Below, piece after piece: positions 15,801 to 32,953 of a stretch of DNA of 45,214 bases; positions within the stretch are counted from its first letter, which is position 1; each line of letters opens with the position of its first letter. The stretch lies in the NCBI GenBank assembly GCA_039794845.1, contig JAUQVK010000081.1:1-45214 (forward strand), given 5' to 3'. Made by a program: the position numbers and the translations under genes. This DNA comes from Thermostichus sp. DRC_bins_24. Lineage in GTDB: Bacteria > Cyanobacteriota > Cyanobacteriia > Thermostichales > Thermostichaceae. Below the pieces are notes generated by a model. The model saw nothing but the letters and a program-made list of their open reading frames with translations. It did no database searches and was not told the origin of the DNA.

Positions 15801-16769
15801 CTACAGTTTCAGGGCTGCCCGTGGGTCGTAAGATTGAACCTGCTGGAGTTTCTCGTAGAGCTCTCGCTCTTGTTCCGAGACCTGGCTGGGCAGATGGATT
15901 TGCACCACCACGTAAAAGTCCCCGCGTTCGCCTTTGCCCTTGGGAAAGCCTTTGTCGGCTAGGCGCAACTTACGCCCCGGTTGAATGCCCGCCGGGATCC
16001 GCAGCTTAACCACGCCATCAAGGGTAGGCACTTCCACTTGCGCTCCCAAGACAGCTTCGCTGGGACTGATGGGCAGATCGCAGTACACGTCGGATCCCTC
16101 TAAGCGGTAGAAGGGATGATCTTTGAGTTCGATCTTGAGGTACAGATCGCCGGCACCGCCGTTGGGGTTGGGATGCCCTTGGCCCCGCAGTCGAATCCGC
16201 TTGCCGGGGGTAATCCCCGCCGGGAGATTGACTTCTAGGGTACGATCCCCACCTACGCGTAAGCGGCGTTTGCCCCCTTCGTAGGCTTCTGGGATCGTGA
16301 TCTGAATGGTGGCTTCGGCATCGTAGCTGGTGTTGCTTGCGGATCCAGAAAAACCGCTGCTGCGGCCTGCAGATTGGCTTTGCACACGACCCAGCAGCTG
16401 ATCGATGAAATCTTGAAAGTCGTCGAATTGGCTGAAATCAACGCCGCTACCAAACCCGCCAACGCCAAAATCTTCAGAGCCGAAAGGACTGCCGCCAAAG
16501 GGGCCACCTGTGTAGGTATCGCGGCTGGAGCGGAACCCCCCCTGCTGATAATATTGGCTGAATTGGTCGTATTGCTTGCGCTTGTTAGGGTCGGAGAGAA
16601 CTTCGTAGGCTTCGTTGATGTCTTTAAACTTTTCCTCAGCGGTTTTGTCGTTGGGGTTAACATCTGGGTGATACTTGCGGGCTAGACGCCGAAAAGCTTG
16701 CTTCACCTCGTCAGCTGAGGCCGTTTTGCTGACCCCCAAAATCTTGTAGTAGTCCTTGAAGTTTTGCAT
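15801..16769 (-). CDS. dnaJ: type II J-domain co-chaperone (DnaJ/CbpA-like, no zinc finger)
   Basis: [13 protein letters not shown] start, HPD motif, G/F-rich region and DnaJ C-terminal domain. Confidence 0.92.
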
Positions 16770-16992
16770 GGAGGTTTTCGCAGGTTGGTCGGCTGAGGAT
16801 AAGCAAGGGGGTATAGGGCTGAGAGCTTGAGCACAGAAGCCTCCCTCTATCAACCCGCTTGTGATGTGAACACTGGTGTGAACACTGCGGGGGCGAGCTA
16901 CACCCCATCGCCCCTCTCGTCTTCTTCCATTATCTAATGCACCCGCTAGGAGTGGGATCCAACCCGGCATGGGTGGATCCCTGAGGGTCTAC

Positions 16993-18888
16993 TTACTTGG
17001 TCTCGGTGAAGTCGGCGTCGATGACATCGTCGCTCCCTCCGGGACTGGCGGCATGGCCAAAATCACTGCCTCCAGGGCTGGCACCCGGCTGCTGGTACAG
17101 CTCGCTGCTCATGGCGTAGAGGGCCTCCTGCAGGGCCGCTTCCTTGGTCTGGATGGCGCTGTCGTCCTCCCGCTGAATGGCATCGCGCAAGTCCCGAATC
17201 AGGGTTTCGAGATTGGTGCGCTTGTCGGTAGGAATTTTGTCCCCCAGCTCTTTTAACTGCCGTTCCGCTTGGTAAGCCAGAGAGTCGGCCTTGTTGCGTC
17301 GCTCGATTTTCTCTCGCCGCTGGCGGTCTTCTGCGGCAAATTTCTCCGCTTCGGAGACCATGCGCTCCACTTCTTTGCTGTCCAAGGTAGAGGCTCCAGT
17401 GATGGAGATGCTCTGCTCCTTACCGCTGCCCTTATCTTTGGCGGTAACTTTCAGAATGCCGTTGGCGTCGATGTCGAAGGTGACCTCGATCTGCGGCACC
17501 CCCCGAGGGGCGGGTGGGATCCCATCCAGCTTGAAACGGCCCAAGGATTTGTTGTCGCGGGCCATCTCCCGTTCCCCTTGCACCACATGGATTTCCACGG
17601 AGGTTTGCCCATCCTCGGCCGTGGAGAAGGTTTCCGACTTGCGGGTGGGTACGGTGGTATTGCGGGGGATCAGCTTGGTGGCCACACCGCCCAGGGTCTC
17701 TACCCCCAGTGACAAGGGGGTGACGTCCAGCAGCAGCACATCCTTGACTTCCCCGGCCAGCACCCCAGCTTGGATGGCAGCACCCACGGCCACCACTTCG
17801 TCGGGGTTGACGCTTTCGTTAGGCTCTTTGCCCAGCAGATCTCTGACCAACTGCTTCACCGCCGGGATCCGCGTAGAGCCGCCCACCAGCACCACTTCAT
17901 TGATGTCTGACTTGGTTAGCTTGGCATCCCGCAGGGCTTGCTCCACCGGGCCTTTACAACGCTCGAACAGGTCGGCGCAGATGTTTTCGAATTGGGCTCG
18001 GGAGAGCTTCAGCTCCAGGTGCTTCGGCCCGTCGGCGGTAGCAGTGATGAAGGGCAGATTGATGGTAGTCTCAGAAACACTGGAAAGCTCGATCTTGGCT
18101 TTTTCGGCGGCTTCTGTCAGGCGTTGCAGGGCTTGACGGTCGTTGCGCAGGTCAATCCCTTCCATTTGCTTGAATTGGTCGGCCATCCAATCCACGATCT
18201 TCTTGTCGAAGTCGTCACCCCCCAGCTGGGTATCGCCACTGGTGGACTTCACCTCGAAGACCCCATCTCCCACCTCCAGCACTGACACATCGAAGGTGCC
18301 ACCGCCCAAGTCGAAAACGAGGATGGTCTCGTTGTTGCGCTTGTCTAGTCCGTAGGCCAAAGAAGCAGCCGTCGGCTCGTTGATAATGCGCAGCACTTCC
18401 AACCCGGCAATTTTCCCGGCATCTTTGGTGGCCTGCCGCTGGGAATCATTGAAATAAGCCGGTACGGTGATCACCGCTTGGGTGACGGTTTGGCCCAGGT
18501 AGCGGCTGGCATCATCCACCAGCTTGCGCAGCACCATGGCCGAGATCTCTTCCGGGGCAAATTCTTTGTTGAGGCGGGGGGCAGACACTTTAACATTGCC
18601 CCGCTCATCCCGCAACACGCGATAGGCCACGCGCTTGGATTCGGGACTCAGCTCATCGTACTTGCGCCCAATGAATCGCTTAACCGAGTAAAAGGTGTTT
18701 TCCGGGTTGAGCACCGCTTGCCGACGAGCCATTTGGCCCACCAGCCGCTCCCCATCTTTGGTGAAGGCGACCACCGAGGGTGTGGTACGGGTGCCCTCAG
18801 CATTGGCAATTACGGTGGGAACACCGCCTTCCATCACAGCGACAACCGAGTTGGTTGTGCCCAAGTCAATTCCTACGACTTTTCCCAT
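16993..18888 (-). CDS. dnaK: molecular chaperone DnaK (Hsp70)
   Basis: [27 protein letters not shown] and GGSTRIP motifs, with C-terminal DDVIDADF. Confidence 0.98.
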
Positions 18889-19084
18889 CGGCTCCTCGTT
18901 CTCCTCATCAATGTGTCTCTTAATGCGTCGCTCCGGTTACCGCCGCCAGCCCATCCGCTGTGTGAAGTAGCTTGGGCAGTTAATCCATGAATGTTTAACC
19001 GTTTTCTGGGTTGATCCTAGCCAGCCAGGGATCCCATTCAGGGTGAGAATGCCGCCCATTTCCGGCCTGTTGGTTTCGCAGCAG

Positions 19085-19100
19085 TTACGGATCTCCGTAC
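19085..19100. promoter_or_regulatory. K-box / Rre1-site-like palindrome upstream of dnaK
   Basis: Minus strand reads GTACGG-AGAT-CCGTAA, resembling the K-box GTTCGG-NNAN-CCNNAC. It lies about 200 bp upstream of the dnaK ATG. Confidence 0.5.
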
Positions 19101-19152
19101 CTGTGCAAGAGGGCCAGGGATCCCAATCTTTACGAATGCTTTCTGGGAAGAC

Positions 19153-25399: not shown

Positions 25400-26998
25400 A
25401 TGGTAGTCTCGGATCCCTTTAGTCTTGCTGTGCAAGAGATGCAGCAGGGCGGGCAAGCAGACCGAGTGAAAAAGCTGGTTTACTTCACCTGTACCAGCAC
25501 TTGGGAAAGCGATGTTAATAAGCTGCGCCAGGTGGACTTAAAGAGCCTGTTGGAGCAACTTTGCCGCGAGCACACGACCCTGGAATCTCTGGGCCAACGC
25601 TTCCGAGACGCCATCAGCCACATCAACAAAAAGGCCGAATATGCCCGCATTGCCAAGATGGTGCTGAGCAAGCTGCAGCCTCTGTATCGAAACTCCCAGC
25701 CCGATCTGGCCAACCCATCTGCTCTCCCCCCTGAGGAGGCGCCAGTTTGGGTCGCTCCCCAGCCCGCCCTGCCCTTAGGGTACGGGGGCATGCAACTGCA
25801 AAAGCAAGACTACGACCCCTTCGAGCTGCGGGCAGCGGTGATGCGCCAAACCAGTCCCTTGCGTGCCAAGTTGGTCGTCTTTACGGCCCTGCACCACAAG
25901 TTAGAAGCCAGTTTGCAGGGGTTGGCGGCTTTGCGGCGCTACAGCTTCGACGATCTGCTCAAGGAGCTTTACGATGCCTGTCACTCGCCCGAGGAACTGG
26001 AAACGCGGCTGAAACAGGCAGTACAGCAATTGGCGGAACCGGAACAGAATGGCCAGGCAGCCAACGCCGTGCTGCAGATGATGAAACCCCTCTACGTTTA
26101 CTTGCCCCGAGAAACAGTTGACCATGGCGGGCTTACCGCTGAAGCTTCCCCCGCAGATCTCGACTGGCTCAATGCCGAAGCCTCCGGTACCAGTCACATC
26201 ACCCTGGCTGAGCCTTGGATTCTGGAGTATGGGGACGCCGAAGGAGCAGTGGACGAGGCAGAGGCCCTTGACCCGAATGCCCCTTACCTCAGCCCAGCGG
26301 CTTGGCCGGCAGAGGCTTTTGCTCCCCCGGCACCAACCCCAGCACTCCCCAGCCGCCCTCGGTTTGTTACACCGCCCCCTGTGCGCCTGCAGGATCTGCC
26401 TGAGCGTTCCCGCCAACTGTTGGATCGCAGTGCCAGTTCCCTTATGGCCACCATCGAGAACACCCTGAGCGAATTGGGCAATGCCCTAGACGAACGGCTG
26501 CAAGATGAGGATCCGGCCCAGTACCTAACGCTGAAACACCAGGTTTTGCGCGGCCTCTTGAAAGATATTGAGGGATCCGCCGTCACTTTTATGGGGATCC
26601 TGAAAAAGCTGGAGCAATCGGAACGGCGCTTGGTACAGCCGGATTTGCCCGAGGTGGTGACCGAGGTGCCCAGCAATTTCGAGGATCCCTACTCATCGTT
26701 GCGGCAGGTTTTGGCCACCAGCGCGCTGACCCAGCAGAAGCCGCAGTTGGAGCAGGAGGTGATGCGTTTGGTGCGGCGCAACATCGGCTCCATCAAAGTC
26801 AGCATCGAAAATGCCCTGAGCGAGTTGGGCACTGCCTTGGACGACCAGTTCCAAACCCACAGCCTGGAAGAAGCCCTGTTTTTTAAGTACCAGGCGTTGC
26901 GCACCTTTTTGCATGAGGTGGAGGAGCTCTCCTCCAAATTTGCTGCCCTGCTGGATCGCATGGAAGAGGCGGAGCGCCGTCTGTTTGGCCTAACTTGA
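25400..26998 (+). CDS. hypothetical helical protein with internal domain duplications
   Basis: 532-aa ORF with host-like codon usage, two ~70-aa C-terminal repeats (IEN.LSELG.ALD...ERRL) and a Pro-rich linker. Confidence 0.8.
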   Translation: MVVSDPFSLAVQEMQQGGQADRVKKLVYFTCTSTWESDVNKLRQVDLKSLLEQLCREHTTLESLGQRFRDAISHINKKAEYARIAKMVLSKLQPLYRNSQPDLANPSALPPEEAPVWVAPQPALPLGYGGMQLQKQDYDPFELRAAVMRQTSPLRAKLVVFTALHHKLEASLQGLAALRRYSFDDLLKELYDACHSPEELETRLKQAVQQLAEPEQNGQAANAVLQMMKPLYVYLPRETVDHGGLTAEASPADLDWLNAEASGTSHITLAEPWILEYGDAEGAVDEAEALDPNAPYLSPAAWPAEAFAPPAPTPALPSRPRFVTPPPVRLQDLPERSRQLLDRSASSLMATIENTLSELGNALDERLQDEDPAQYLTLKHQVLRGLLKDIEGSAVTFMGILKKLEQSERRLVQPDLPEVVTEVPSNFEDPYSSLRQVLATSALTQQKPQLEQEVMRLVRRNIGSIKVSIENALSELGTALDDQFQTHSLEEALFFKYQALRTFLHEVEELSSKFAALLDRMEEAERRLFGLT

Positions 26999-27057
26999 GG
27001 GCTAAACCCGCCATTGGGGCACACAAGAACCAGCCCAATCCGTACTTTGGCGGATCC

Positions 27058-27105
27058 GAGTTCAATGAGTTCAATAAGAAACAAGATGCAATAAGAAACA
27101 AGATG
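27058..27105. repeat. compound tandem duplications (GAGTTCAAT x2; CAATAAGAAACAAGATG x2)
   Basis: Exact 9-bp and 17-bp tandem copies seen in the sequence. Confidence 0.85.
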
Positions 27106-27157
27106 ATATTCATTGGGCCTGCTGGCGGTAATCTAAGGGAGCAAGCCAGGTAGTTTT

Positions 27158-28144
27158 ATGGATGCCAAAGATCTGCTCCGTCTGTATCGGGCAGGGCGCA
27201 CCAGCTTCGCGGGGGAAAACCTTGCCGCACTCGACCTGAACCGAGCGGATCTGATTGGGGTGGATCTCTCCCAAGCCGACCTGCACAATGCCAACCTGAT
27301 CTTTGCCTACCTGGGGCGAGTGAAGCTGCAAAAGGCCAACCTCGTTGGGGCCAAGTTAAGCGGGGCTAACCTCAGCCAGGCGGATTTGAGCGAGGCGGAT
27401 CTCAGTGATGCACAACTGCACGGCACCACCTTGCAGGGGGCGGATTTGCATGGAGCCAACCTAACCCTGGCCATGTTGATCGATGCCAACCTTCTGGATG
27501 CGGATCTGCGCTGGGTCAACCTCACCAGTGCGAATCTGTTGGGGGCTTGTCTACGGGGGGCCAATTTCCGTTTCGATAGCCGCCGGGGGGCGGTGTTGCG
27601 CAGTGCCAACCTCAGCCGCGCCGATCTGAGCGGCGCCAATTTGTCCGGGGTGGATTTAACCCGTGCCGATCTAAGTGGGGCCAACCTGAAGGAGGCCAGC
27701 TTGATCGGGGCCAACTTGCAGGGGGCCAATTTGCAACGGGCCTGTTTGCGCGGGGCCATCTTGAGCGAGACCGACCTAAGGGGGGTCTCCTTTTTGGGGG
27801 CAGATATGCAGGGGGTGCAGATGGCGCGGGTGAACTTAAAAGAGGGGATGCTCAGCCAGGTCAATTTAACGGAAGCCAACCTGAGCGAGTCGGATTTGGG
27901 GGGGGCCGATCTTTCCGCCAGTTGCCTGTATGCGGCCAAGTTGGACCGAGCGGATCTGAGCCGAGCCAACCTTGCCGGGTCAGATTTGCGATACGCCAGC
28001 CTTGTGGATGCCTATTTGGGCCGCACCAATCTCGAAAACGCCGATCTCAGCCATGCGATGCTAACCCGAGCCGATCTGAGCACCGCCAATTTGATCGGGG
28101 CCAACTTGCAAGGGGCAACCATGCCGGATGGACGGGTGAATTAA
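27158..28144 (+). CDS. pentapeptide repeat protein
   Basis: Continuous A(D/N)LxxA repeats, N-terminal LLRLYRAGRTSF and C-terminal GATMPDG cap. Confidence 0.95.
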   Translation: MDAKDLLRLYRAGRTSFAGENLAALDLNRADLIGVDLSQADLHNANLIFAYLGRVKLQKANLVGAKLSGANLSQADLSEADLSDAQLHGTTLQGADLHGANLTLAMLIDANLLDADLRWVNLTSANLLGACLRGANFRFDSRRGAVLRSANLSRADLSGANLSGVDLTRADLSGANLKEASLIGANLQGANLQRACLRGAILSETDLRGVSFLGADMQGVQMARVNLKEGMLSQVNLTEANLSESDLGGADLSASCLYAAKLDRADLSRANLAGSDLRYASLVDAYLGRTNLENADLSHAMLTRADLSTANLIGANLQGATMPDGRVN

Positions 28145-28239
28145 GGCGGGGATCCCCCCTGCGGGAGGTGAGGTTTCCCCCTGCTGTGAAGCGGCAACAA
28201 CCGCTACTCTACAGGGGAAGGAGAGGATCAGAGGGATCC

Positions 28240-29796
28240 GTGAACAGCCATCGCTTTCTATCTCTGATGGAGTCCCTGTGGGCTGGTCTGCCCTTACCGG
28301 AGTGGTTGCCTGCTGCCGGGGAAAAGTCCTGGCAGCAGACGGTGGCTGCCCTAGTGCGACTGTGGCAGGAGGTGGGCCAGTTCGGGGTGGTGCTGAGTGG
28401 GCCGGTATCGTGGTTACCCCCCTCGGTGGTTCGGGTTTGCCAAAATTCGGCAAGCGAGGCTCCCCTGCCGCAACTGCCGGTAAGCATTGATACATCGGAA
28501 ACAGCCCGAAAACCGCGGGAGCCGGCACGGGAGGCTCCTTGGCTGTTCACTCCTGATCTTTCGCCCGAATCGATCCTTACCCCCGGCCAGACGGTGATTC
28601 CTCTGCTACCTCGGGATCCACTGGCAGAGGAACCCTTTCTGTTGGTGCTTACTCCGGTTTTTTCGGCGGTGGCCGCCCAGGGGCATCACCCCCATACTCA
28701 GCAAGTGGGCATGATGATTTCTTTTGATCCGGAGGTGGTGCAGCGGGCCTGGCAGAGTTTGGAGCAACGGGTTCAGCAGGGTAGGCCGGATCGGTTACCC
28801 CTGTGGCAGAGTTTGGCCAAGCACTATCCGCTGATGGATCCCCATGTACGGGTTTTGGCGCGGTTTAGCAGTTTGTTGCTTTTGGGGCATTTGGCCGACT
28901 TAGGATCCCAGCCCGCCCGCCTACCCCCCGCCACAACCGAGGTGGAAGCCTCTCCAGAGCCCCGAGCATCGGCAGAAAAGGTGGAGCAACTGGAGCAACG
29001 GATCCCGGCAACCTCCTCTTCTCCTCAATCGGCCCCACCGAGCTCGTCCACCCATGACGTCTCTTCAGGTCAACAGAATGGTCTGTCTGAGGCGGAGCTG
29101 CTGCGGGCTCTGATTCACGAGGTGCAAACGCCCCTCAGCACCATTCGCACCCTGGCCAGCTTGATCCTGAAACGGACCGATCTACCGCCACGGGTACGGG
29201 AGTACGCCGAGAAGATCGACCGCGAATGTACCGAGCAAATTAACCGCTTCAGTCTGTTTTTCCAGGCCACAGAGACGGTGATGCCCGCCCCTGAAGCCCG
29301 GGAAGGACGTCGGCTGCAGCTGGAGCCAATTGCCCTAGTAGACTTGGTACGGCAAAACTTACCCCGTTGGCAGGAGCAGGTGGAACGGCGCGGATCCCGG
29401 TTGGATCTGGATATTCCTGACGAGTTGCCGGATGTGGTTAGCGATCCCAAGGCCCTAGAGGCGGTGTTGTTTGGCATGATCGATCGCATAGCCCGCAGCA
29501 CTCCCCCTGGCAGCCACATTCGCGCCCAGTTGGTTAGCGCCGGGGATCTGGTGAAGCTGCAGGTACAAGTGGATACCACCAAGGGAGGAATCTCCTCTCC
29601 TGCCACGGAGGCCAAACCCCCCCAAGCGATTGGTCAGCTGTTGGTGTTGCAGCCGGATACGGGGGCTGTCAGCCTCAGCATTCCCGTCACCCAAACTCTG
29701 TTTCGGGCCTTGGGGGGCTATTTGACCGTGCGCCACCGCGCCCATCAGGGGGAGGTGCTGAACATCTACCTGCCCCGTCAGTCCCGTCAGTTGTGA
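28240..29796 (+). CDS. hik34: Hik34-like atypical histidine kinase (HisKA intact, HATPase degenerate)
   Basis: H-box HEVQTPLSTIRTL is present but the N, G1 and G2 boxes are missing. C-terminal LLVLQPDTGAVSLSIPVTQTLFRALGG matches the Hik34 family from recall. The start is uncertain (GTG 28240 or ATG 28267). Confidence 0.75.
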   Translation: MNSHRFLSLMESLWAGLPLPEWLPAAGEKSWQQTVAALVRLWQEVGQFGVVLSGPVSWLPPSVVRVCQNSASEAPLPQLPVSIDTSETARKPREPAREAPWLFTPDLSPESILTPGQTVIPLLPRDPLAEEPFLLVLTPVFSAVAAQGHHPHTQQVGMMISFDPEVVQRAWQSLEQRVQQGRPDRLPLWQSLAKHYPLMDPHVRVLARFSSLLLLGHLADLGSQPARLPPATTEVEASPEPRASAEKVEQLEQRIPATSSSPQSAPPSSSTHDVSSGQQNGLSEAELLRALIHEVQTPLSTIRTLASLILKRTDLPPRVREYAEKIDRECTEQINRFSLFFQATETVMPAPEAREGRRLQLEPIALVDLVRQNLPRWQEQVERRGSRLDLDIPDELPDVVSDPKALEAVLFGMIDRIARSTPPGSHIRAQLVSAGDLVKLQVQVDTTKGGISSPATEAKPPQAIGQLLVLQPDTGAVSLSIPVTQTLFRALGGYLTVRHRAHQGEVLNIYLPRQSRQL

Positions 29797-29898
29797 ACTT
29801 GCTTGCAACAGCCGAGACAAAAGTGGCGGATCGGAGGGGGGATGTGGCTAGGATCGATCTGCCAGATCGCTGGCCAGAGGAATCCAGAGATTTTGTCC

Positions 29899-30666
29899 AT
29901 GCCAAGAGCCAGAAAAGCTGTTGAACGCGGTGGTGCCACACACCTTGCAAAGCAAGAGGGTGAGCCCGAGTCTGCTTGTGGAACTGAGGGAGCGCGGGAG
30001 GGGAGGAGCACCCTATCTGCGCAGCAGATCTCCACGTTGCTCCACGAGGTGCGCAACCCTCTCACCGCCTTGAATACCCTGGCCAAGCTGTTGCAAAAAC
30101 GTCTCCCCCCTGGGGATCGCAACCACTGGATTGGCCTCAGCATTGAGCAGGAGTGCAAGCATTTGCAGGATCTGCTGACGGAGTTTGAGCGCTCAGATGG
30201 GAGCCCGGCCCTGCAACCCCTTGCTTTGGCGGAGCTGTTGCGGGAGTGGATCCCGGTGTATCAAGCTTTGGTAGAAACCCAGGGGCACCACTTCCAGGCG
30301 ACAGTGCCACCCCAGCTGCCCTCGGTACAGGCGGATCCACGGGCGCTGCGCCAGGTGCTGGATAACTTGATCGACAATGCCTGCAAGTACACCCCAGCCC
30401 CCGGGGAGATCCGGTTGGCGGTGTCTCTGCAAACCCACTCCCAGCCCAATTCGGTATCGATCTCGGTGTGCGACAGTGGCCCTGGTATCCATCCAGAGAA
30501 TCTGGAGCGCATTTTCGATCCCTTTTTTCGGGTGGATCCCTCCAAACCAGGACAGGGGTTAGGGTTGGCCATCAGCCGTGACCTCGCCACCCGGATGGGT
30601 GGGCAGCTGCAGGTGGAGAGTTCCCCCCAGGGCTCCTGTTTTCACCTGAATTTACCCTTGGCCTAG
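29899..30666 (+). CDS. hik2: Hik2/CSK-like histidine kinase lacking a sensor domain
   Basis: HEVRNPLTALNTLAKLLQKRL..DRN H-box region with intact N (NLIDNA), G1 (DSGPG), F and G2 (GQGLGL) boxes and a very short N-terminus. An alternative ATG is at 29842. Confidence 0.75.
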   Translation: MPRARKAVERGGATHLAKQEGEPESACGTEGAREGRSTLSAQQISTLLHEVRNPLTALNTLAKLLQKRLPPGDRNHWIGLSIEQECKHLQDLLTEFERSDGSPALQPLALAELLREWIPVYQALVETQGHHFQATVPPQLPSVQADPRALRQVLDNLIDNACKYTPAPGEIRLAVSLQTHSQPNSVSISVCDSGPGIHPENLERIFDPFFRVDPSKPGQGLGLAISRDLATRMGGQLQVESSPQGSCFHLNLPLA

Positions 30667-30717
30667 GGAAAGACAAGGGATCCAATCCACGCCACGATCT
30701 GCTTTAGGAGCTGTACC

Positions 30718-31461
30718 ATGCCCTCCATCCCCCCAACACGAACAGAGACCTCTGGAACCGCTGCGCCGGCGAGGGTGATGCTGGTGGACGACGAGCCGGG
30801 TTTGCGGGATGCGGTGCAAGCCTACCTAGAAGACAGTGGGTTTGAGGTGATCCCTGCGGCCCATCCTCAGCAGGCTCTCCAGTTGCTCAGCACCACACAG
30901 CCGCAGCTGATCATCTCCGACATCATGATGCCTGGCATTGATGGCTATCAATTTTTGGCACAACTGCGGCAACTGGAGCCCTACAGCCACTTGCCCGTGG
31001 TGTTTCTCACCGCCAAAGGCATGACAGCCGACCGCATTCAGGGCTATCGCGCCGGGGTCGATGCCTATTTGCCCAAGCCCTTTGATCCTGAGGAATTGGT
31101 GGCCATCGTCTCCAATTTGCTTGAGCGCTCCCGAGCCGCCAATCCTTCCGAGGTCGTAGCCCGAGAGCTGGCCTCTATTCGGGCCCTGCTGTCCGAGCGA
31201 GCCCCGACCTTAGATACCCCCGCTCGTCCGCCGGCCACGTCCCCCTTGCCTCCGCCGATCAAGGTGGAGTTTACGCCACGAGAACAGCAGGTGCTGGAAA
31301 AAGTGGCAGAAGGGCTGATGAACAAAGAAATCGCCAAGCAACTGCAAACCAGCGTGCGCAATGTGGAGAAATACGTAACCCGCCTGCTGAACAAAACCGG
31401 CACCAGCAGCCGCACAGAGTTGGTTCGCTACGCCCTTACCTACGGTTTGATCAGTTTGTAA
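30718..31461 (+). CDS. rre1: NarL/LuxR-family response regulator Rre1/Ycf29
   Basis: LVDDEPGLRDAVQAYLED, SDIMMP, FLTAKGMTADRIQGY and GLMNKEIA..L.TSVRNVEKYV..LL.KTGT.SRTELVRYAL. Confidence 0.9.
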   Translation: MPSIPPTRTETSGTAAPARVMLVDDEPGLRDAVQAYLEDSGFEVIPAAHPQQALQLLSTTQPQLIISDIMMPGIDGYQFLAQLRQLEPYSHLPVVFLTAKGMTADRIQGYRAGVDAYLPKPFDPEELVAIVSNLLERSRAANPSEVVARELASIRALLSERAPTLDTPARPPATSPLPPPIKVEFTPREQQVLEKVAEGLMNKEIAKQLQTSVRNVEKYVTRLLNKTGTSSRTELVRYALTYGLISL

Positions 31462-31605
31462 ATCCAGTCCCTCGACGCATTCTTGCTTGCTATTGACTCT
31501 TGCTATTGACTGGGCTGAGGGTGGAAGCAATATAGCCTCTCTTCCCCCCCCAAATGATGATCTGCTGTAGTCACTTCAAATAAGAAGATACACTTTTTGA
31601 CTCCC

Positions 31606-31624
31606 CTCTCCCAGAGCGGGAGAG
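31606..31624. repeat. CTCTCCC-N5-GGGAGAG hairpin (cyanobacterial REP-like palindrome / possible terminator between convergent genes)
   Basis: Perfect 7-bp stem 3 bp from the pyrC stop, with no U-tract. Confidence 0.4.
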
Positions 31625-31627
31625 AGG

Positions 31628-32953
31628 CTAAGGCTGGTGCCGCGCTGTACAAGGGGGGTGATGGTTCCGACTGGCATCCCCCACTTGGGTGTGCAGCACC
31701 TTGCCGCGAAGGGTTTTCCCCAGCCAGGGTGTTGCTGCGGATTTCGACTGTAGGGTTGCTTCAGTAATGCTCCAGGTATGGGCGGGGTCGAACATCACCC
31801 AATGGTTGGCGGATTCGGGTTGCAGAGTCGGGGGATCCAGATTCAAACAGCGGGCTGGGTATAGGCTCAGGGCAGACCACAGTTGCACAGCGGTAAGGGC
31901 TCCCTTTTCCACCAGGTTTTGCCAGAGGAGGGGCAGAGCCAGTTCCAGGCCAATCGCCCCCACAGGGGCATCGGCAAAGGGCAGGGTTTTCTCCTCGTAG
32001 GTGTAGGGGCGGTGATCGGTGGCGATGCCAAGGCTGCCGGAGCGGATCCCTTCGATTAGAGCTTGACGATCGCTGCTGCTGGGTAAAGGGGGCAAGAGAT
32101 GCAGGTTGGGATCATAGTTTTGCTCGAATACGGCTTCTTCTGACAAAATCAGGTGCATCCAGGGGGTGCTGGCGGTGATCGGCCATCCTTCGGCTTGGGC
32201 CTGTTGGATGAGCTGTAGGCTACGGGCCTGGCTAACCCGCATGATGTGAATCGGAGCGGGAGAGGACACACTTCTAACCACCTCCAAAATTCTGGCCAAG
32301 GCAGCGGTTTCGGCACCGGCAGGGATCCCTTTTAACCCCAGGCGCAACGCCCACACCCCCTCGTACACACTGCCCTGGCCGGCAAGGGAGGGATCCCAGG
32401 CCCAAAGCATCAAGGGTTTATTCTCTATCCGCAAATACTCCAGGGCGCACCGCAAGAGCGCTAAGGAACGCAGGGGCTGATCTTCTGTAAAGCCAATCGC
32501 CCCCGCCCGCGCCAGTTCCCCCCATTCGCTCAGGGCATTTCCTTGGGTTCCCAAACTCAGGGCTGCCCAGGGCAACCAACGGGGATCCCCAGGTTTGCGA
32601 GTATAGCGGGTCAGTTGTTCGGCATGATCCAGCACCGGATCGGTTGTGGGGAGGAGTCCTACGTGGGTAAAGCCCCCTGCCAAAGCTGCCGCAGCCAAGG
32701 AGGTTAGGGTTTCGCGGCTTTCGTATCCCGGCTCGCCACTGTGAGCATACAAATCTACGAGCCCCGGCCCAAGCACCCAACCTGAGCCATCCCATACTGG
32801 CGTATCCTCCGGGCGCTCTGCAGGGCCAACAGCACAGATGCGGCCCTCCTCCAGCCACACGTCGGTTACTTGATCCCAATGGTGCAGTGGATCCAGTAAG
32901 CGCACTCCCTGTACGCACACTTTGGGGGGAAAGATTAGCCCCATCTGCTCCAC
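31628..32953 (-). CDS. pyrC: dihydroorotase (cyanobacterial type)
   Basis: PGLVDLYAHSGEPGYESRETL, ATDHRPYTYEEK and GAIGLELALPLLW motifs. Confidence 0.85.
   Translation of the reverse strand: MEQMGLIFPPKVCVQGVRLLDPLHHWDQVTDVWLEEGRICAVGPAERPEDTPVWDGSGWVLGPGLVDLYAHSGEPGYESRETLTSLAAAALAGGFTHVGLLPTTDPVLDHAEQLTRYTRKPGDPRWLPWAALSLGTQGNALSEWGELARAGAIGFTEDQPLRSLALLRCALEYLRIENKPLMLWAWDPSLAGQGSVYEGVWALRLGLKGIPAGAETAALARILEVVRSVSSPAPIHIMRVSQARSLQLIQQAQAEGWPITASTPWMHLILSEEAVFEQNYDPNLHLLPPLPSSSDRQALIEGIRSGSLGIATDHRPYTYEEKTLPFADAPVGAIGLELALPLLWQNLVEKGALTAVQLWSALSLYPARCLNLDPPTLQPESANHWVMFDPAHTWSITEATLQSKSAATPWLGKTLRGKVLHTQVGDASRNHHPPCTARHQP

What the first reader, a model, noticed from the sequence alone, without database searches (positions are those of the whole stretch)
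28240..31461. Contiguous Hik34-like pseudokinase + sensor-less Hik2 + Rre1: a candidate split two-component heat-sensing module
Seen: three co-oriented genes. The first has a long N-terminal region and an intact H-box but a degenerate ATP-binding domain (no N/G1/G2 boxes). The second has a complete kinase core but only about 45 residues before the H-box, so no GAF sensor. The third is Rre1/Ycf29. Established: Hik34 and Hik2 have each been linked to Rre1 in heat and salt responses of Synechocystis and S. elongatus, where from recall the genes are not adjacent. Inference: the two kinases are complementary halves, a sensor without ATPase and an ATPase without sensor. They may act as a heteromeric sensor kinase, and the clustering in an early-branching thermophile may preserve the ancestral operon.
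Basis: partly seen in the sequence, partly recalled or inferred. Interest (0 to 1): 0.75.

Follow-up and report, generated by a model that had tools for sequence, protein, structure and literature searches.

The report
Hik34, sensor-less Hik2, Rre1 operon
Three neighbouring genes of a hot-spring cyanobacterium encode two histidine kinases (one without ATP-binding residues, one without a sensor domain) and one response regulator; all three families are already known, and only their tight clustering seems to be new.

Summary
Gene 1 (28240-29796) has a long N-terminal domain, an intact H-box and a kinase-shaped C-terminal domain without the N, G1 or G2 residues. Gene 2 (29899-30666) is a complete kinase core with 48 unconserved residues before its histidine. 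Gene 3 (30718-31461) is a receiver plus LuxR-type regulator.

Most of this is in print. Hik34 is described as having only the HisKA motif yet autophosphorylating in vitro (PMC4390874). GAF-less "class II" Hik2 is described for Synechococcus JA-3-3Ab, JA-2-3B'a and Gloeobacter (PMC5904244).

New here:
- The trio keeps its order in 5 of 5 related loci with enough downstream sequence, two of them with different flanks. It is absent from 74 crown-cyanobacterial loci.
- The ATP-site loss holds in 236 of 236 Hik34-family proteins, including lineages whose Hik2 has a GAF sensor. "Complementary halves" is therefore not special to this lineage.
- Both kinases share response-regulator docking residues that 62 other kinases lack.
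- The Hik34 N-terminal domain is DICT-like.

Best reading: both kinases act on Rre1. Hik2 donates phosphate, and Hik34 modulates, probably as a phosphatase or phosphate sink. Orthology to slr1285, slr1147 and slr1783 is indirect.

The parts
28240..29796 (+). Gene 1: Hik34-family protein, 518 aa. DICT-like N-terminal domain, disordered linker, DHp with phosphoacceptor His, and a CA-shaped domain without ATP-binding residues.
   Evidence: ORF. Pfam HisKA only. Family alignment. AF2 model, mean pLDDT 71.7.
28267..28902 (+). N-terminal input domain of gene 1 (residues about 10-221), alpha/beta, DICT-like.
   Evidence: AF2 of this part: pLDDT 81.9, pTM 0.77. hhalign against DICT kinases: 99.3%, E 6e-21, from column 113 onward. 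Pfam DICT at E<=1 in 5 of 28 family members, not in this protein. No PDB fold match at E<=0.001.
29089..29280 (+). DHp helical hairpin of gene 1 (residues 284-347). His293 codon at 29116-29118, HExxT motif, invariant Cys330.
29317..29778 (+). CA-like domain of gene 1 (residues 360-513). N-box Asn replaced by Arg, no G1 DxGxG, and G2 replaced by the family motif QP[DE]TG..SL. The lid region 449-479 is modelled below pLDDT 50.
29797..29898 (.). 102-bp spacer between gene 1 and gene 2. No terminator-like site inside it.
   Evidence: The spacers are 4 bp in L004 and 22 bp in L020, by longest ORFs.
29899..30666 (+). Gene 2: sensor-less Hik2-like kinase (class II Hik2), 255 aa. It has 48 unconserved residues, then HisKA (His49 codon at 30043-30045) and an intact HATPase_c.
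   Evidence: Trees.
30667..30717 (.). 51-bp spacer between gene 2 and gene 3.
   Evidence: One weak terminator-like site at 30618-30635 lies inside the end of gene 2; the scan found 4 sites against 5.7 expected.
30718..31461 (+). Gene 3: NarL-type response regulator (receiver at residues 20-131, GerE/LuxR helix-turn-helix at 185-239), Rre1-like.
   Evidence: It is 69-88% identical in the five related trios.

Best explanation
The three genes are an operon for the cyanobacterial Hik34 / Hik2 / Rre1 stress-signalling module. In model strains this module is scattered over the chromosome.

Both kinases are predicted to dock on the same regulator, Rre1. Gene 2 (class II Hik2) is the only canonical ATP-using kinase. 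With no input domain, it is probably the phosphate donor.

Gene 1 (Hik34) carries the input domain (DICT-like) and an invariant His-Glu-x-x-Thr DHp motif. Its catalytic domain has lost every ATP-contacting residue. It therefore most likely sets the level of phosphorylated Rre1. It could do so as a phosphatase or phosphate sink for Rre1, or by acting on Hik2, rather than as a conventional autokinase.

What is shown: gene order and its conservation, domain make-up, loss of the ATP motifs, and shared docking residues.

What is inferred: co-transcription, the partner identity, and the division of labour between donor and modulator.
For: - Order conserved. Gene 1, gene 2, gene 3 occur in that order in L001, L002, L003, L004 and L020. 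That is 5 of 5 related loci with enough downstream sequence. L005 ends 489 bp after gene 1 but already holds the start of a gene 2 homologue.
- L004 and L020 share none of the six tested flanking genes with the window. Their trio genes are 4 and 2 bp apart (L004), or 22 bp apart and overlapping by 23 bp (L020).
- Eleven gene 1 / gene 2 homologue pairs have matching contig lengths. This is indirect.
- Docking residues at DHp positions +11 and +12 after the His are Thr and Leu in 182 of 236 Hik34-family proteins, in 28 of 30 gene 2-family proteins, and in 0 of 62 other kinases. GAF-type Hik2 proteins have Thr in 7 of 7, then Phe in 6 of 7.
- In 236 Hik34-family proteins: His 236, Glu at +1 235, Thr at +4 236. 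The N-box Asn is kept in 55, the G1 Asp in 0, and the first and third G2 Gly in 0.
- The gene 2 family keeps all catalytic residues in 21 of 21.
- Literature, passages read: Hik2-Rre1 and Hik34-Rre1 pairs, and Hik34 as a negative regulator of heat-shock genes at normal temperature (PMC3264485, PMC4390874). Hik2 phosphorylates Rre1 (PMC4751278).
Against: - Recombinant Synechocystis Hik34 is reported to autophosphorylate with ATP in vitro despite lacking the motifs (PMC4390874 and PMC3264485, citing Suzuki 2005, not read). It may therefore be a real, non-canonical kinase.
- The invariant His would not be needed by a pure phosphatase.
- Orthology to slr1285, slr1147 and slr1783 was not tested directly, because no reference sequence could be obtained.
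- One paper states that Thermostichus strains have no Hik2 homologue (PMC9953108).
- No transcript data were available.
- The Rre1 motif GTNCGGK is absent from 28145-28239, the spacer upstream of gene 1, and is not enriched in the window (35 found, 44 expected).
- The "other kinases" used as background came from one hit list, not from a random sample.
Confidence: 0.5

Rival explanations
1. Heteromeric sensor kinase. The Hik34-like and Hik2-like DHp domains pair, the Hik2 ATPase phosphorylates the Hik34 histidine in trans, and the Hik34 N-terminal domain gates the complex.
For: - The genes are adjacent, with tight spacing kept across divergent genomes.
- The first DHp helices are very alike.
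- An invariant Glu-Cys sits at the same position of the second DHp helix in both families (236 of 236 and 21 of 21), where GAF-type Hik2 has Ser (7 of 7).
- There is a solved precedent for kinase-kinase pairing. RetS and the RetS-GacS co-complex 7n0e are among the best sequence and fold matches of gene 1.
Against: - The ATP-site loss is family-wide, including lineages where Hik2 has its own GAF sensor and lies more than 10 kb away.
- Hik34 alone is reported to autophosphorylate (PMC4390874).
- No interaction test could be run.
- Similar DHp helices are equally expected from a shared regulator.
Confidence: 0.2
2. Two independent kinases with one regulator. Hik34 binds ATP in a non-canonical way and phosphorylates Rre1 on its own signal. 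Hik2 does the same on another signal, such as salt sensed through its DHp. The operon only co-expresses them.
For: - In vitro autophosphorylation of Hik34 is reported (PMC3264485, PMC4390874).
- His293 is invariant, and the replacement motif QP[DE]TG..SL is strongly conserved.
- The CA fold is kept, and HATPase_c is still detected at E<=1 in 25 of 28 members.
- Salt sensing by the Hik2 DHp alone is reported (PMC5904244).
Against: - None of 236 proteins keeps the G1 Asp or a full G2.
- The N-box Asn varies among R, N, K and S.
- The lid region is variable in length and modelled at low confidence.
- A conserved enzyme site would not be expected to vary at its magnesium ligand.
Confidence: 0.25
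3. Gene 2 is not the Hik2 orthologue. It is a lineage-specific minimal kinase that is simply the cognate partner of the adjacent regulator, and gene 1 is an unrelated neighbour.
For: - PMC9953108 reports no Hik2 homologue in Thermostichus.
- The gene 2 H-box is HEVRN, not the HQ[FL]RN of GAF-type Hik2.
- Identity to GAF-type proteins is only 33-38%.
- A profile search of 1.8 billion proteins ranks many generic multi-domain kinases above them.
Against: - The short family and the GAF-type clade are sisters: SH-aLRT 98 with 66 rows and 92 with 70 rows that include 30 of the top generic hits.
- The first DHp helix and the following KRL.P.D.N stretch are shared.
- Gene 1 carries the same docking residues and stays linked where the flanks change.
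Confidence: 0.1

Closest known systems
Hik34 (slr1285) of Synechocystis sp. PCC 6803
   Same: HisKA motif only, no conserved ATP-binding motifs, soluble, restricted to cyanobacteria and nearly universal there, linked to Rre1 and heat-shock genes (PMC4390874, PMC3264485, PMC2779907, PMC2853384: passages).
   Different: Here it is encoded directly upstream of a Hik2-like kinase and an Rre1-like regulator. Orthology rests on the matching signature and on elimination, not on a sequence comparison with slr1285.
Class II (GAF-less) Hik2 of Synechococcus sp. JA-3-3Ab, JA-2-3B'a and Gloeobacter violaceus (Ashby and Houmard 2006, as cited; Ibrahim et al., PMC5904244)
   Same: Kinase core only, no GAF, found in early-branching thermophilic relatives. 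The core is sister to GAF-type Hik2.
   Different: In the passages I read, that paper does not mention the neighbouring genes. The H-box has Glu after the His where GAF-type Hik2 has Gln.
Class I Hik2 (slr1147, Synpcc7942_0453) with Rre1
   Same: Soluble kinase that phosphorylates the LuxR-type regulator Rre1. The first DHp helix is very similar.
   Different: Class I has an N-terminal GAF domain, reported to hold a 3Fe-4S cluster (PMC13421787). Its gene is an orphan, and none was found within 10 kb of hik34 in 74 crown loci.
RetS-GacS of Pseudomonas aeruginosa and DivL-CckA of Caulobacter (non-canonical kinases that act on another kinase)
   Same: A kinase-shaped protein modulates signalling of a true kinase. 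RetS, the RetS-GacS DHp co-complex 7n0e and DivL are among the best PDB matches of gene 1.
   Different: These matches reflect the shared kinase core, not close relationship (about 19% identity). No binding between gene 1 and gene 2 was tested. That RetS and DivL act this way is from my own knowledge and the PDB titles.
DICT-domain histidine kinases (Pfam PF10069 + HisKA + HATPase_c)
   Same: Homologous to the Hik34 family from the end of the N-terminal domain through DHp and CA (hhalign 99.3%).
   Different: They keep all ATP-binding residues. They lie next to hik34 in 36 of 74 crown loci but not in the trio loci.

Membership tests
Hik34 family | HisKA phosphoacceptor motif present | tested here: met
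   Pfam HisKA, E 2e-07. His invariant in 236 of 236.
Hik34 family | No conserved ATP-binding motifs (N, G1, G2), as PMC4390874 describes for Hik34 | tested here: met
   HATPase_c scores 12.1 bits against a cut-off of 26.4. G1 Asp in 0 of 236, N-box Asn in 55 of 236.
Hik34 family | Soluble, no transmembrane segment | tested here: met
   Maximum Kyte-Doolittle value over 19 residues is 1.52, inside a modelled beta strand.
Hik34 family | Cyanobacteria-wide distribution | tested here: met
Of the 80 loci kept, 71 carry taxonomy and 70 of those are cyanobacterial; the one exception is labelled Acetobacteraceae. 2963 proteins found from a Chroococcales query.
Hik34 family | Reciprocal best hit with slr1285 | not testable with these tools
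   No Synechocystis or S. elongatus sequence was returned.
Hik2 (class I) | N-terminal GAF domain | tested here: not met
   No GAF in gene 2. Its 48 N-terminal residues are unconserved. No Hik2-type GAF is coded anywhere in the window or the 80 loci.
Hik2 (class II, GAF-less) | Kinase core most closely related to that of GAF-type Hik2 | tested here: met
   Sister clades, SH-aLRT 98 and 92. These are quick searches, and the sample was drawn from hit lists.
Hik2 (class II, GAF-less) | Complete H, N, G1 and G2 boxes | tested here: met
   Invariant in 21 of 21.
Hik2 | H-box LLHQ[LF]RN, as read from the His185Q primer of PMC4751278 and from 9 GAF-type proteins | tested here: not met
   Gene 2 has LLHEVRN.
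Rre1 / Ycf29 | Receiver domain plus LuxR/GerE helix-turn-helix | tested here: met
   Acceptor Asp and partner residues are present.
Rre1 / Ycf29 | Orthology to slr1783 / Synpcc7942_1860 | not testable with these tools
   No reference sequence was available. NCBIfam has no Rre1 model among the best 25. The Atlas names are generic.
DICT sensory domain (PF10069) | Match to the Pfam model | tested here: inconclusive
   No hit for this protein at E<=1. 5 of 28 family members hit, best E 0.005. The profile-profile match to DICT kinases starts only at column 113.
Pseudokinase (no ATP turnover) | Does not bind or hydrolyse ATP | not testable with these tools
   The sequence predicts loss of the site. 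Print reports autophosphorylation for the Synechocystis protein (PMC4390874).

The most novel reading that the evidence does not exclude
Hik34 is a family-wide pseudokinase across cyanobacteria. Its invariant histidine is served by Hik2 (phosphorylated in trans, or used to strip phosphate from Rre1), so Hik34, Hik2 and Rre1 form one three-protein circuit rather than two parallel two-component systems. The tight operon of the early-branching thermophiles would then be the surviving ancestral arrangement. The DICT-like domain of Hik34 would be the circuit's stress or temperature input, standing in for the GAF domain that class II Hik2 lacks.
Probability: 0.2. Interest if true: 0.7.

Novelty: new variant of a known kind. 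Interest (0 to 1): 0.42.

Why it matters
Hik34, Hik2 and Rre1 are among the few signalling proteins kept by nearly all cyanobacteria. They control the chaperone and stress regulon. The literature assigns Rre1 to Hik34 in some papers and to Hik2 in others, and how an ATP-motif-less Hik34 signals remains unexplained.

An operon that holds all three genes and survives changes of its flanking genes is genomic evidence that they work together. It also offers thermostable proteins with which the donor, phosphatase and heteromer models can be separated in vitro.

The gain is modest. The parts were known, and the mechanism is still inferred.

Tried and rejected
- Named Synechocystis or S. elongatus orthologue: three homologue searches and the genome scan returned none. 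Atlas names were generic.
- Suzuki 2005 (PMC1176413) is not held. The id I recalled for Ashby and Houmard 2006 (PMC1489541) was also not held.
- The supplement of PMC9953108, which should list the Thermostichus "triad", cannot be read. Table 2 shows 1 triad per Thermostichus genome (2 in JA-2-3Ba) but not its composition.
- Terminator and promoter scan of 27000-32500: 4 terminator-like sites against 5.7 expected, and 1 promoter-like site against 1.7 expected. Uninformative.
- Rre1 motif GTNCGGK: 35 matches against 44 expected, none upstream of gene 1.
- Fold search of the N-terminal domain: 0 PDB matches at E<=0.001. The best were PLD/Zucchini-like and TrmB-like at E 0.17-0.5, which I do not trust.
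- Profile search of 1.8 billion representatives with the gene 2 family: dominated by generic multi-domain kinases, so it says nothing on Hik2 kinship. About ten short representatives were recovered.
- Split-off GAF gene near the trio: none.
- Rfam and tRNA scans: nothing in the cluster.
- My H-box pattern missed all 9 GAF-type proteins because they have HQF. I read them separately.
Full report
**What is in the sequence.**

Window 28240-31461 holds three co-oriented ORFs on the + strand.

- Gene 1 (28240-29796, GTG start, 518 aa) matches only Pfam HisKA.
- Gene 2 matches HisKA and HATPase_c (E 2.7e-29) and nothing else. Five homologues begin MP[RS].[RK], which places its start at ATG 29899 rather than TTG 29803. 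That gives 255 aa with 48 unconserved residues before His49.
- Gene 3 (30718-31461) is a receiver plus GerE/LuxR regulator with the usual acidic pocket, Thr and Lys.
- The spacers are 102 and 51 bp, and none of the three has a hydrophobic segment.

**Gene 1 and its family.**

The family is large and cyanobacterial.

- 267 proteins were found from the window protein and 2963 from a Chroococcales member.
- Precomputed Pfam shows HATPase_c in only 6 of the 120 listed proteins and 7 of the 120.

I aligned 236 of 237 usable family sequences to the gene 2 family.

| Position | Hik34 family (of 236) |
|---|---|
| Phosphoacceptor His | 236 |
| Glu at +1 | 235 |
| Thr at +4 | 236 |
| N-box magnesium-binding Asn | 55 (Arg 84, Lys 51, Ser 38) |
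| G1 Asp | 0 |
| First and third G2 Gly | 0 |

- A weak HATPase_c match survives in 25 of 28 members at E<=1; the window protein scores 12.1 bits against a cut-off of 26.4.
- The AF2 model keeps the CA fold, with a low-confidence lid at residues 449-479.
- The best PDB matches by sequence and by fold are ZraS, RetS (including the RetS-GacS co-complex), CpxA and DivL.

This is the signature that PMC4390874 (passages read) gives for Synechocystis Hik34: only the HisKA motif, no conserved ATP-binding motifs, no transmembrane domain, no orthologues outside cyanobacteria, and yet autophosphorylation in vitro. PMC2779907 and PMC2853384 (passages) list hik34 among the five kinases kept by nearly all cyanobacteria. 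The other four are Hik2, Hik33, SphS and SasA. I recall their domain make-up (a GAF domain, transmembrane segments with PAS, or a KaiB-like domain) as different from gene 1's; no call tested this.

I therefore file gene 1 as Hik34-family. The assignment rests on signature and elimination, because no slr1285 sequence could be obtained.

**The N-terminal domain.**

- Residues about 10-221 fold confidently (pLDDT 81.9 when modelled alone).
- The model has no significant PDB neighbour (0 matches at E<=0.001).
- A profile of the family aligns with DICT-HisKA-HATPase kinases at 99.3% probability (E 6e-21), from column 113 through to the end.
- Pfam DICT itself is seen in 5 of 28 members at E<=1, with a best E of 0.005, and not in the window protein.

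The domain is best called DICT-like. No paper in the library holds both "Hik34" and "DICT".

**Gene 2.**

- Its close relatives (E below 1e-45) are all 209-288 aa. Where named, they come from Thermostichus or Thermostichales-type genomes.
- The next hits are 427-473 aa cyanobacterial proteins with GAF, HisKA and HATPase_c.
- Those proteins carry the H-box LLHQF[RK][NS]P, with His near residue 184-194.
- The His185Q primer printed in PMC4751278 reads D-L-L-(H)-Q-L-R-N, so they are Hik2-type.

In a 66-row tree of kinase cores, the short family (21 rows, SH-aLRT 96) is sister to the GAF-type clade (9 rows, 100), and the union has support 98. After I added 30 of the best generic hits, the 24 rows were still one side of a branch, with support 92. 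Both trees are quick searches on rows picked from hit lists.

PMC5904244 (section 13 and passages) already describes a GAF-less "class II Hik2" in Gloeobacter PCC 7421 and Synechococcus JA-2-3B'a and JA-3-3Ab, following Ashby and Houmard 2006. PMC9953108 (passages) says instead that Thermostichus has no Hik2 homologue. Both agree that no GAF-bearing Hik2 is present there.

**Synteny.**

The one genome scan returned 80 loci.

- Gene 1, gene 2 and gene 3 homologues follow one another in L001, L002 and L003 (three Synechococcus sp. hot-spring isolates), in L004, and in L020. Gene 1 identity across these loci is 44-77%.
- L005 ends just after the start of its gene 2 homologue.
- L004 and L020 share none of the six tested flanking genes with the window. 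Their trio genes are almost touching or overlapping.
- None of the other 74 loci has an Rre1-like gene (best identity 34%) or a gene 2-like gene next to hik34.
- None of the 80 loci codes a Hik2-type GAF.
- Caveat: 50 of the 80 loci are Nostocales, and several are short contigs.

Rre1 is called an orphan regulator in the model strains (PMC9321951). I found no paper that describes the cluster:

- Hik34 + Rre1 + Hik2 gave 11 papers.
- Hik2 + JA-3-3Ab gave 4.
- Hik2 + Gloeobacter gave 9.
- Hik34 + pseudokinase gave 0.

The key review of 2006 is not in the library. PMC9953108 counts one "triad" per Thermostichus genome without naming it in the readable text.

**Do both kinases serve the same regulator?**

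I read the DHp positions known to set partner choice, +7, +8, +11, +12 and +15 after the His. The choice of positions comes from my own knowledge of EnvZ and HK853 work.

- The commonest pattern is T,T,T,L,L in both families: 124 of 236 and 17 of 30.
- Thr-Leu at +11 and +12 occurs in 182 of 236 Hik34-family proteins, 28 of 30 gene 2-family proteins, and 0 of 62 other kinases from the hit list.
- GAF-type Hik2 has Thr in 7 of 7 and Phe in 6 of 7.

This fits the published links of both Hik34 and Hik2 to Rre1 (PMC3264485, PMC4751278, PMC9321951). Similar helices would also favour heterodimers, so this result does not separate the models.

**Mechanism.**

Three readings remain.

- (a) Donor plus modulator. 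Sensor-less Hik2 supplies phosphate. Hik34 has an invariant HExxT, which I recall as the phosphatase motif of HisKA kinases, and no ATP site. It removes or buffers phosphate on Rre1 under control of its DICT-like domain. This fits Hik34 being a negative regulator of heat-shock genes at normal temperature (PMC3264485, PMC4390874).
- (c) Two independent kinases, with Hik34 binding ATP in an unknown way, as the reported in vitro autophosphorylation suggests.

I prefer (a), but only moderately. The family-wide loss of the ATP site, present also where Hik2 has its own GAF and lies elsewhere, weakens the idea that the two proteins are complementary halves peculiar to this lineage.

**Ancestry and heat.**

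The Hik34 tree and the Hik2 tree each put the trio-bearing lineages and the crown on two sides of a branch. That fits either loss of an old operon or a later gathering of the genes. Gloeobacter could not be examined. Nothing in the sequence speaks to temperature sensing; that part is borrowed from work on mesophiles.

**Verdict.**

The family labels are probably right. Two of the three "striking" features are already published. The conserved operon, the shared docking residues, the family-wide motif counts and the DICT-like input domain appear to be additions. It is a useful genomic hint for an open question about a known system, not a new kind of system.

Noticed in passing
L009, L011, L012, L014, L016 and 31 further loci (e.g. 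L011:12016-13446 minus strand; L035:13680-15323 plus strand): In 36 of the 74 non-trio loci, a DICT + HisKA + HATPase_c kinase with intact ATP motifs lies 43-5350 bp downstream of the hik34 homologue. It is convergent in 35 loci. Most are Nostocales, but Aphanothece (L023), L062 and L035 also show it. This kinase is a distant paralogue of Hik34.
   Followed up: partly
window 29224-29229 (gene 1 Glu329-Cys330) and 30151-30156 (gene 2 Glu85-Cys86): An invariant Glu-Cys sits at the same position (+36, +37 after the His) of the second DHp helix in both families: 236 of 236 and 21 of 21. GAF-type Hik2 has Ser there in 7 of 7. It could be a redox or pairing site.
   Followed up: partly
stored proteins P0156, P0158, P0160-P0164, P0166, P0201: GAF-type Hik2-like kinases have Gln, not Glu or Asp, directly after the phosphoacceptor His (7 of 7, all 9 by eye). 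The sensor-less gene 2 family has Glu in 19 of 21. From my own knowledge, the acidic residue is usually needed for autophosphorylation.
   Followed up: no
window 15801-18888, minus strand: A dnaK (Hsp70, 16993-18888) and dnaJ (15801-16970) pair lies about 9.3 kb upstream of the trio. dnaK2 is a reported Rre1 target and feeds back on Hik2 (PMC13421787). No GTNCGGK motif lies in the 18889-19152 spacer.
   Followed up: partly
window 25400-26998, plus strand: A 532-aa ORF with no Pfam match. By eye it has two similar C-terminal segments (IEN.LSELG.ALD...). It is conserved upstream of the trio in L001 and L002 at 60-64% identity.
   Followed up: no
window 27158-28144, plus strand: A pentapeptide-repeat protein lies directly upstream of gene 1, with a 95-bp gap. 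It is kept in that place in L001-L003 (80-84% identity) but not in L004 or L020. It may or may not belong to the transcript.
   Followed up: partly
literature: Two papers disagree on Thermostichus. PMC5904244 counts a GAF-less class II Hik2 in JA-3-3Ab and JA-2-3B'a. PMC9953108 reports no Hik2 homologue in Thermostichus strains.
   Followed up: partly
L027 (record title: uncultured Acetobacteraceae bacterium): This locus carries a Nostoc-like hik34 and DICT kinase (88% identical to the L011 kinase). The contig is probably cyanobacterial and mis-binned.
   Followed up: no
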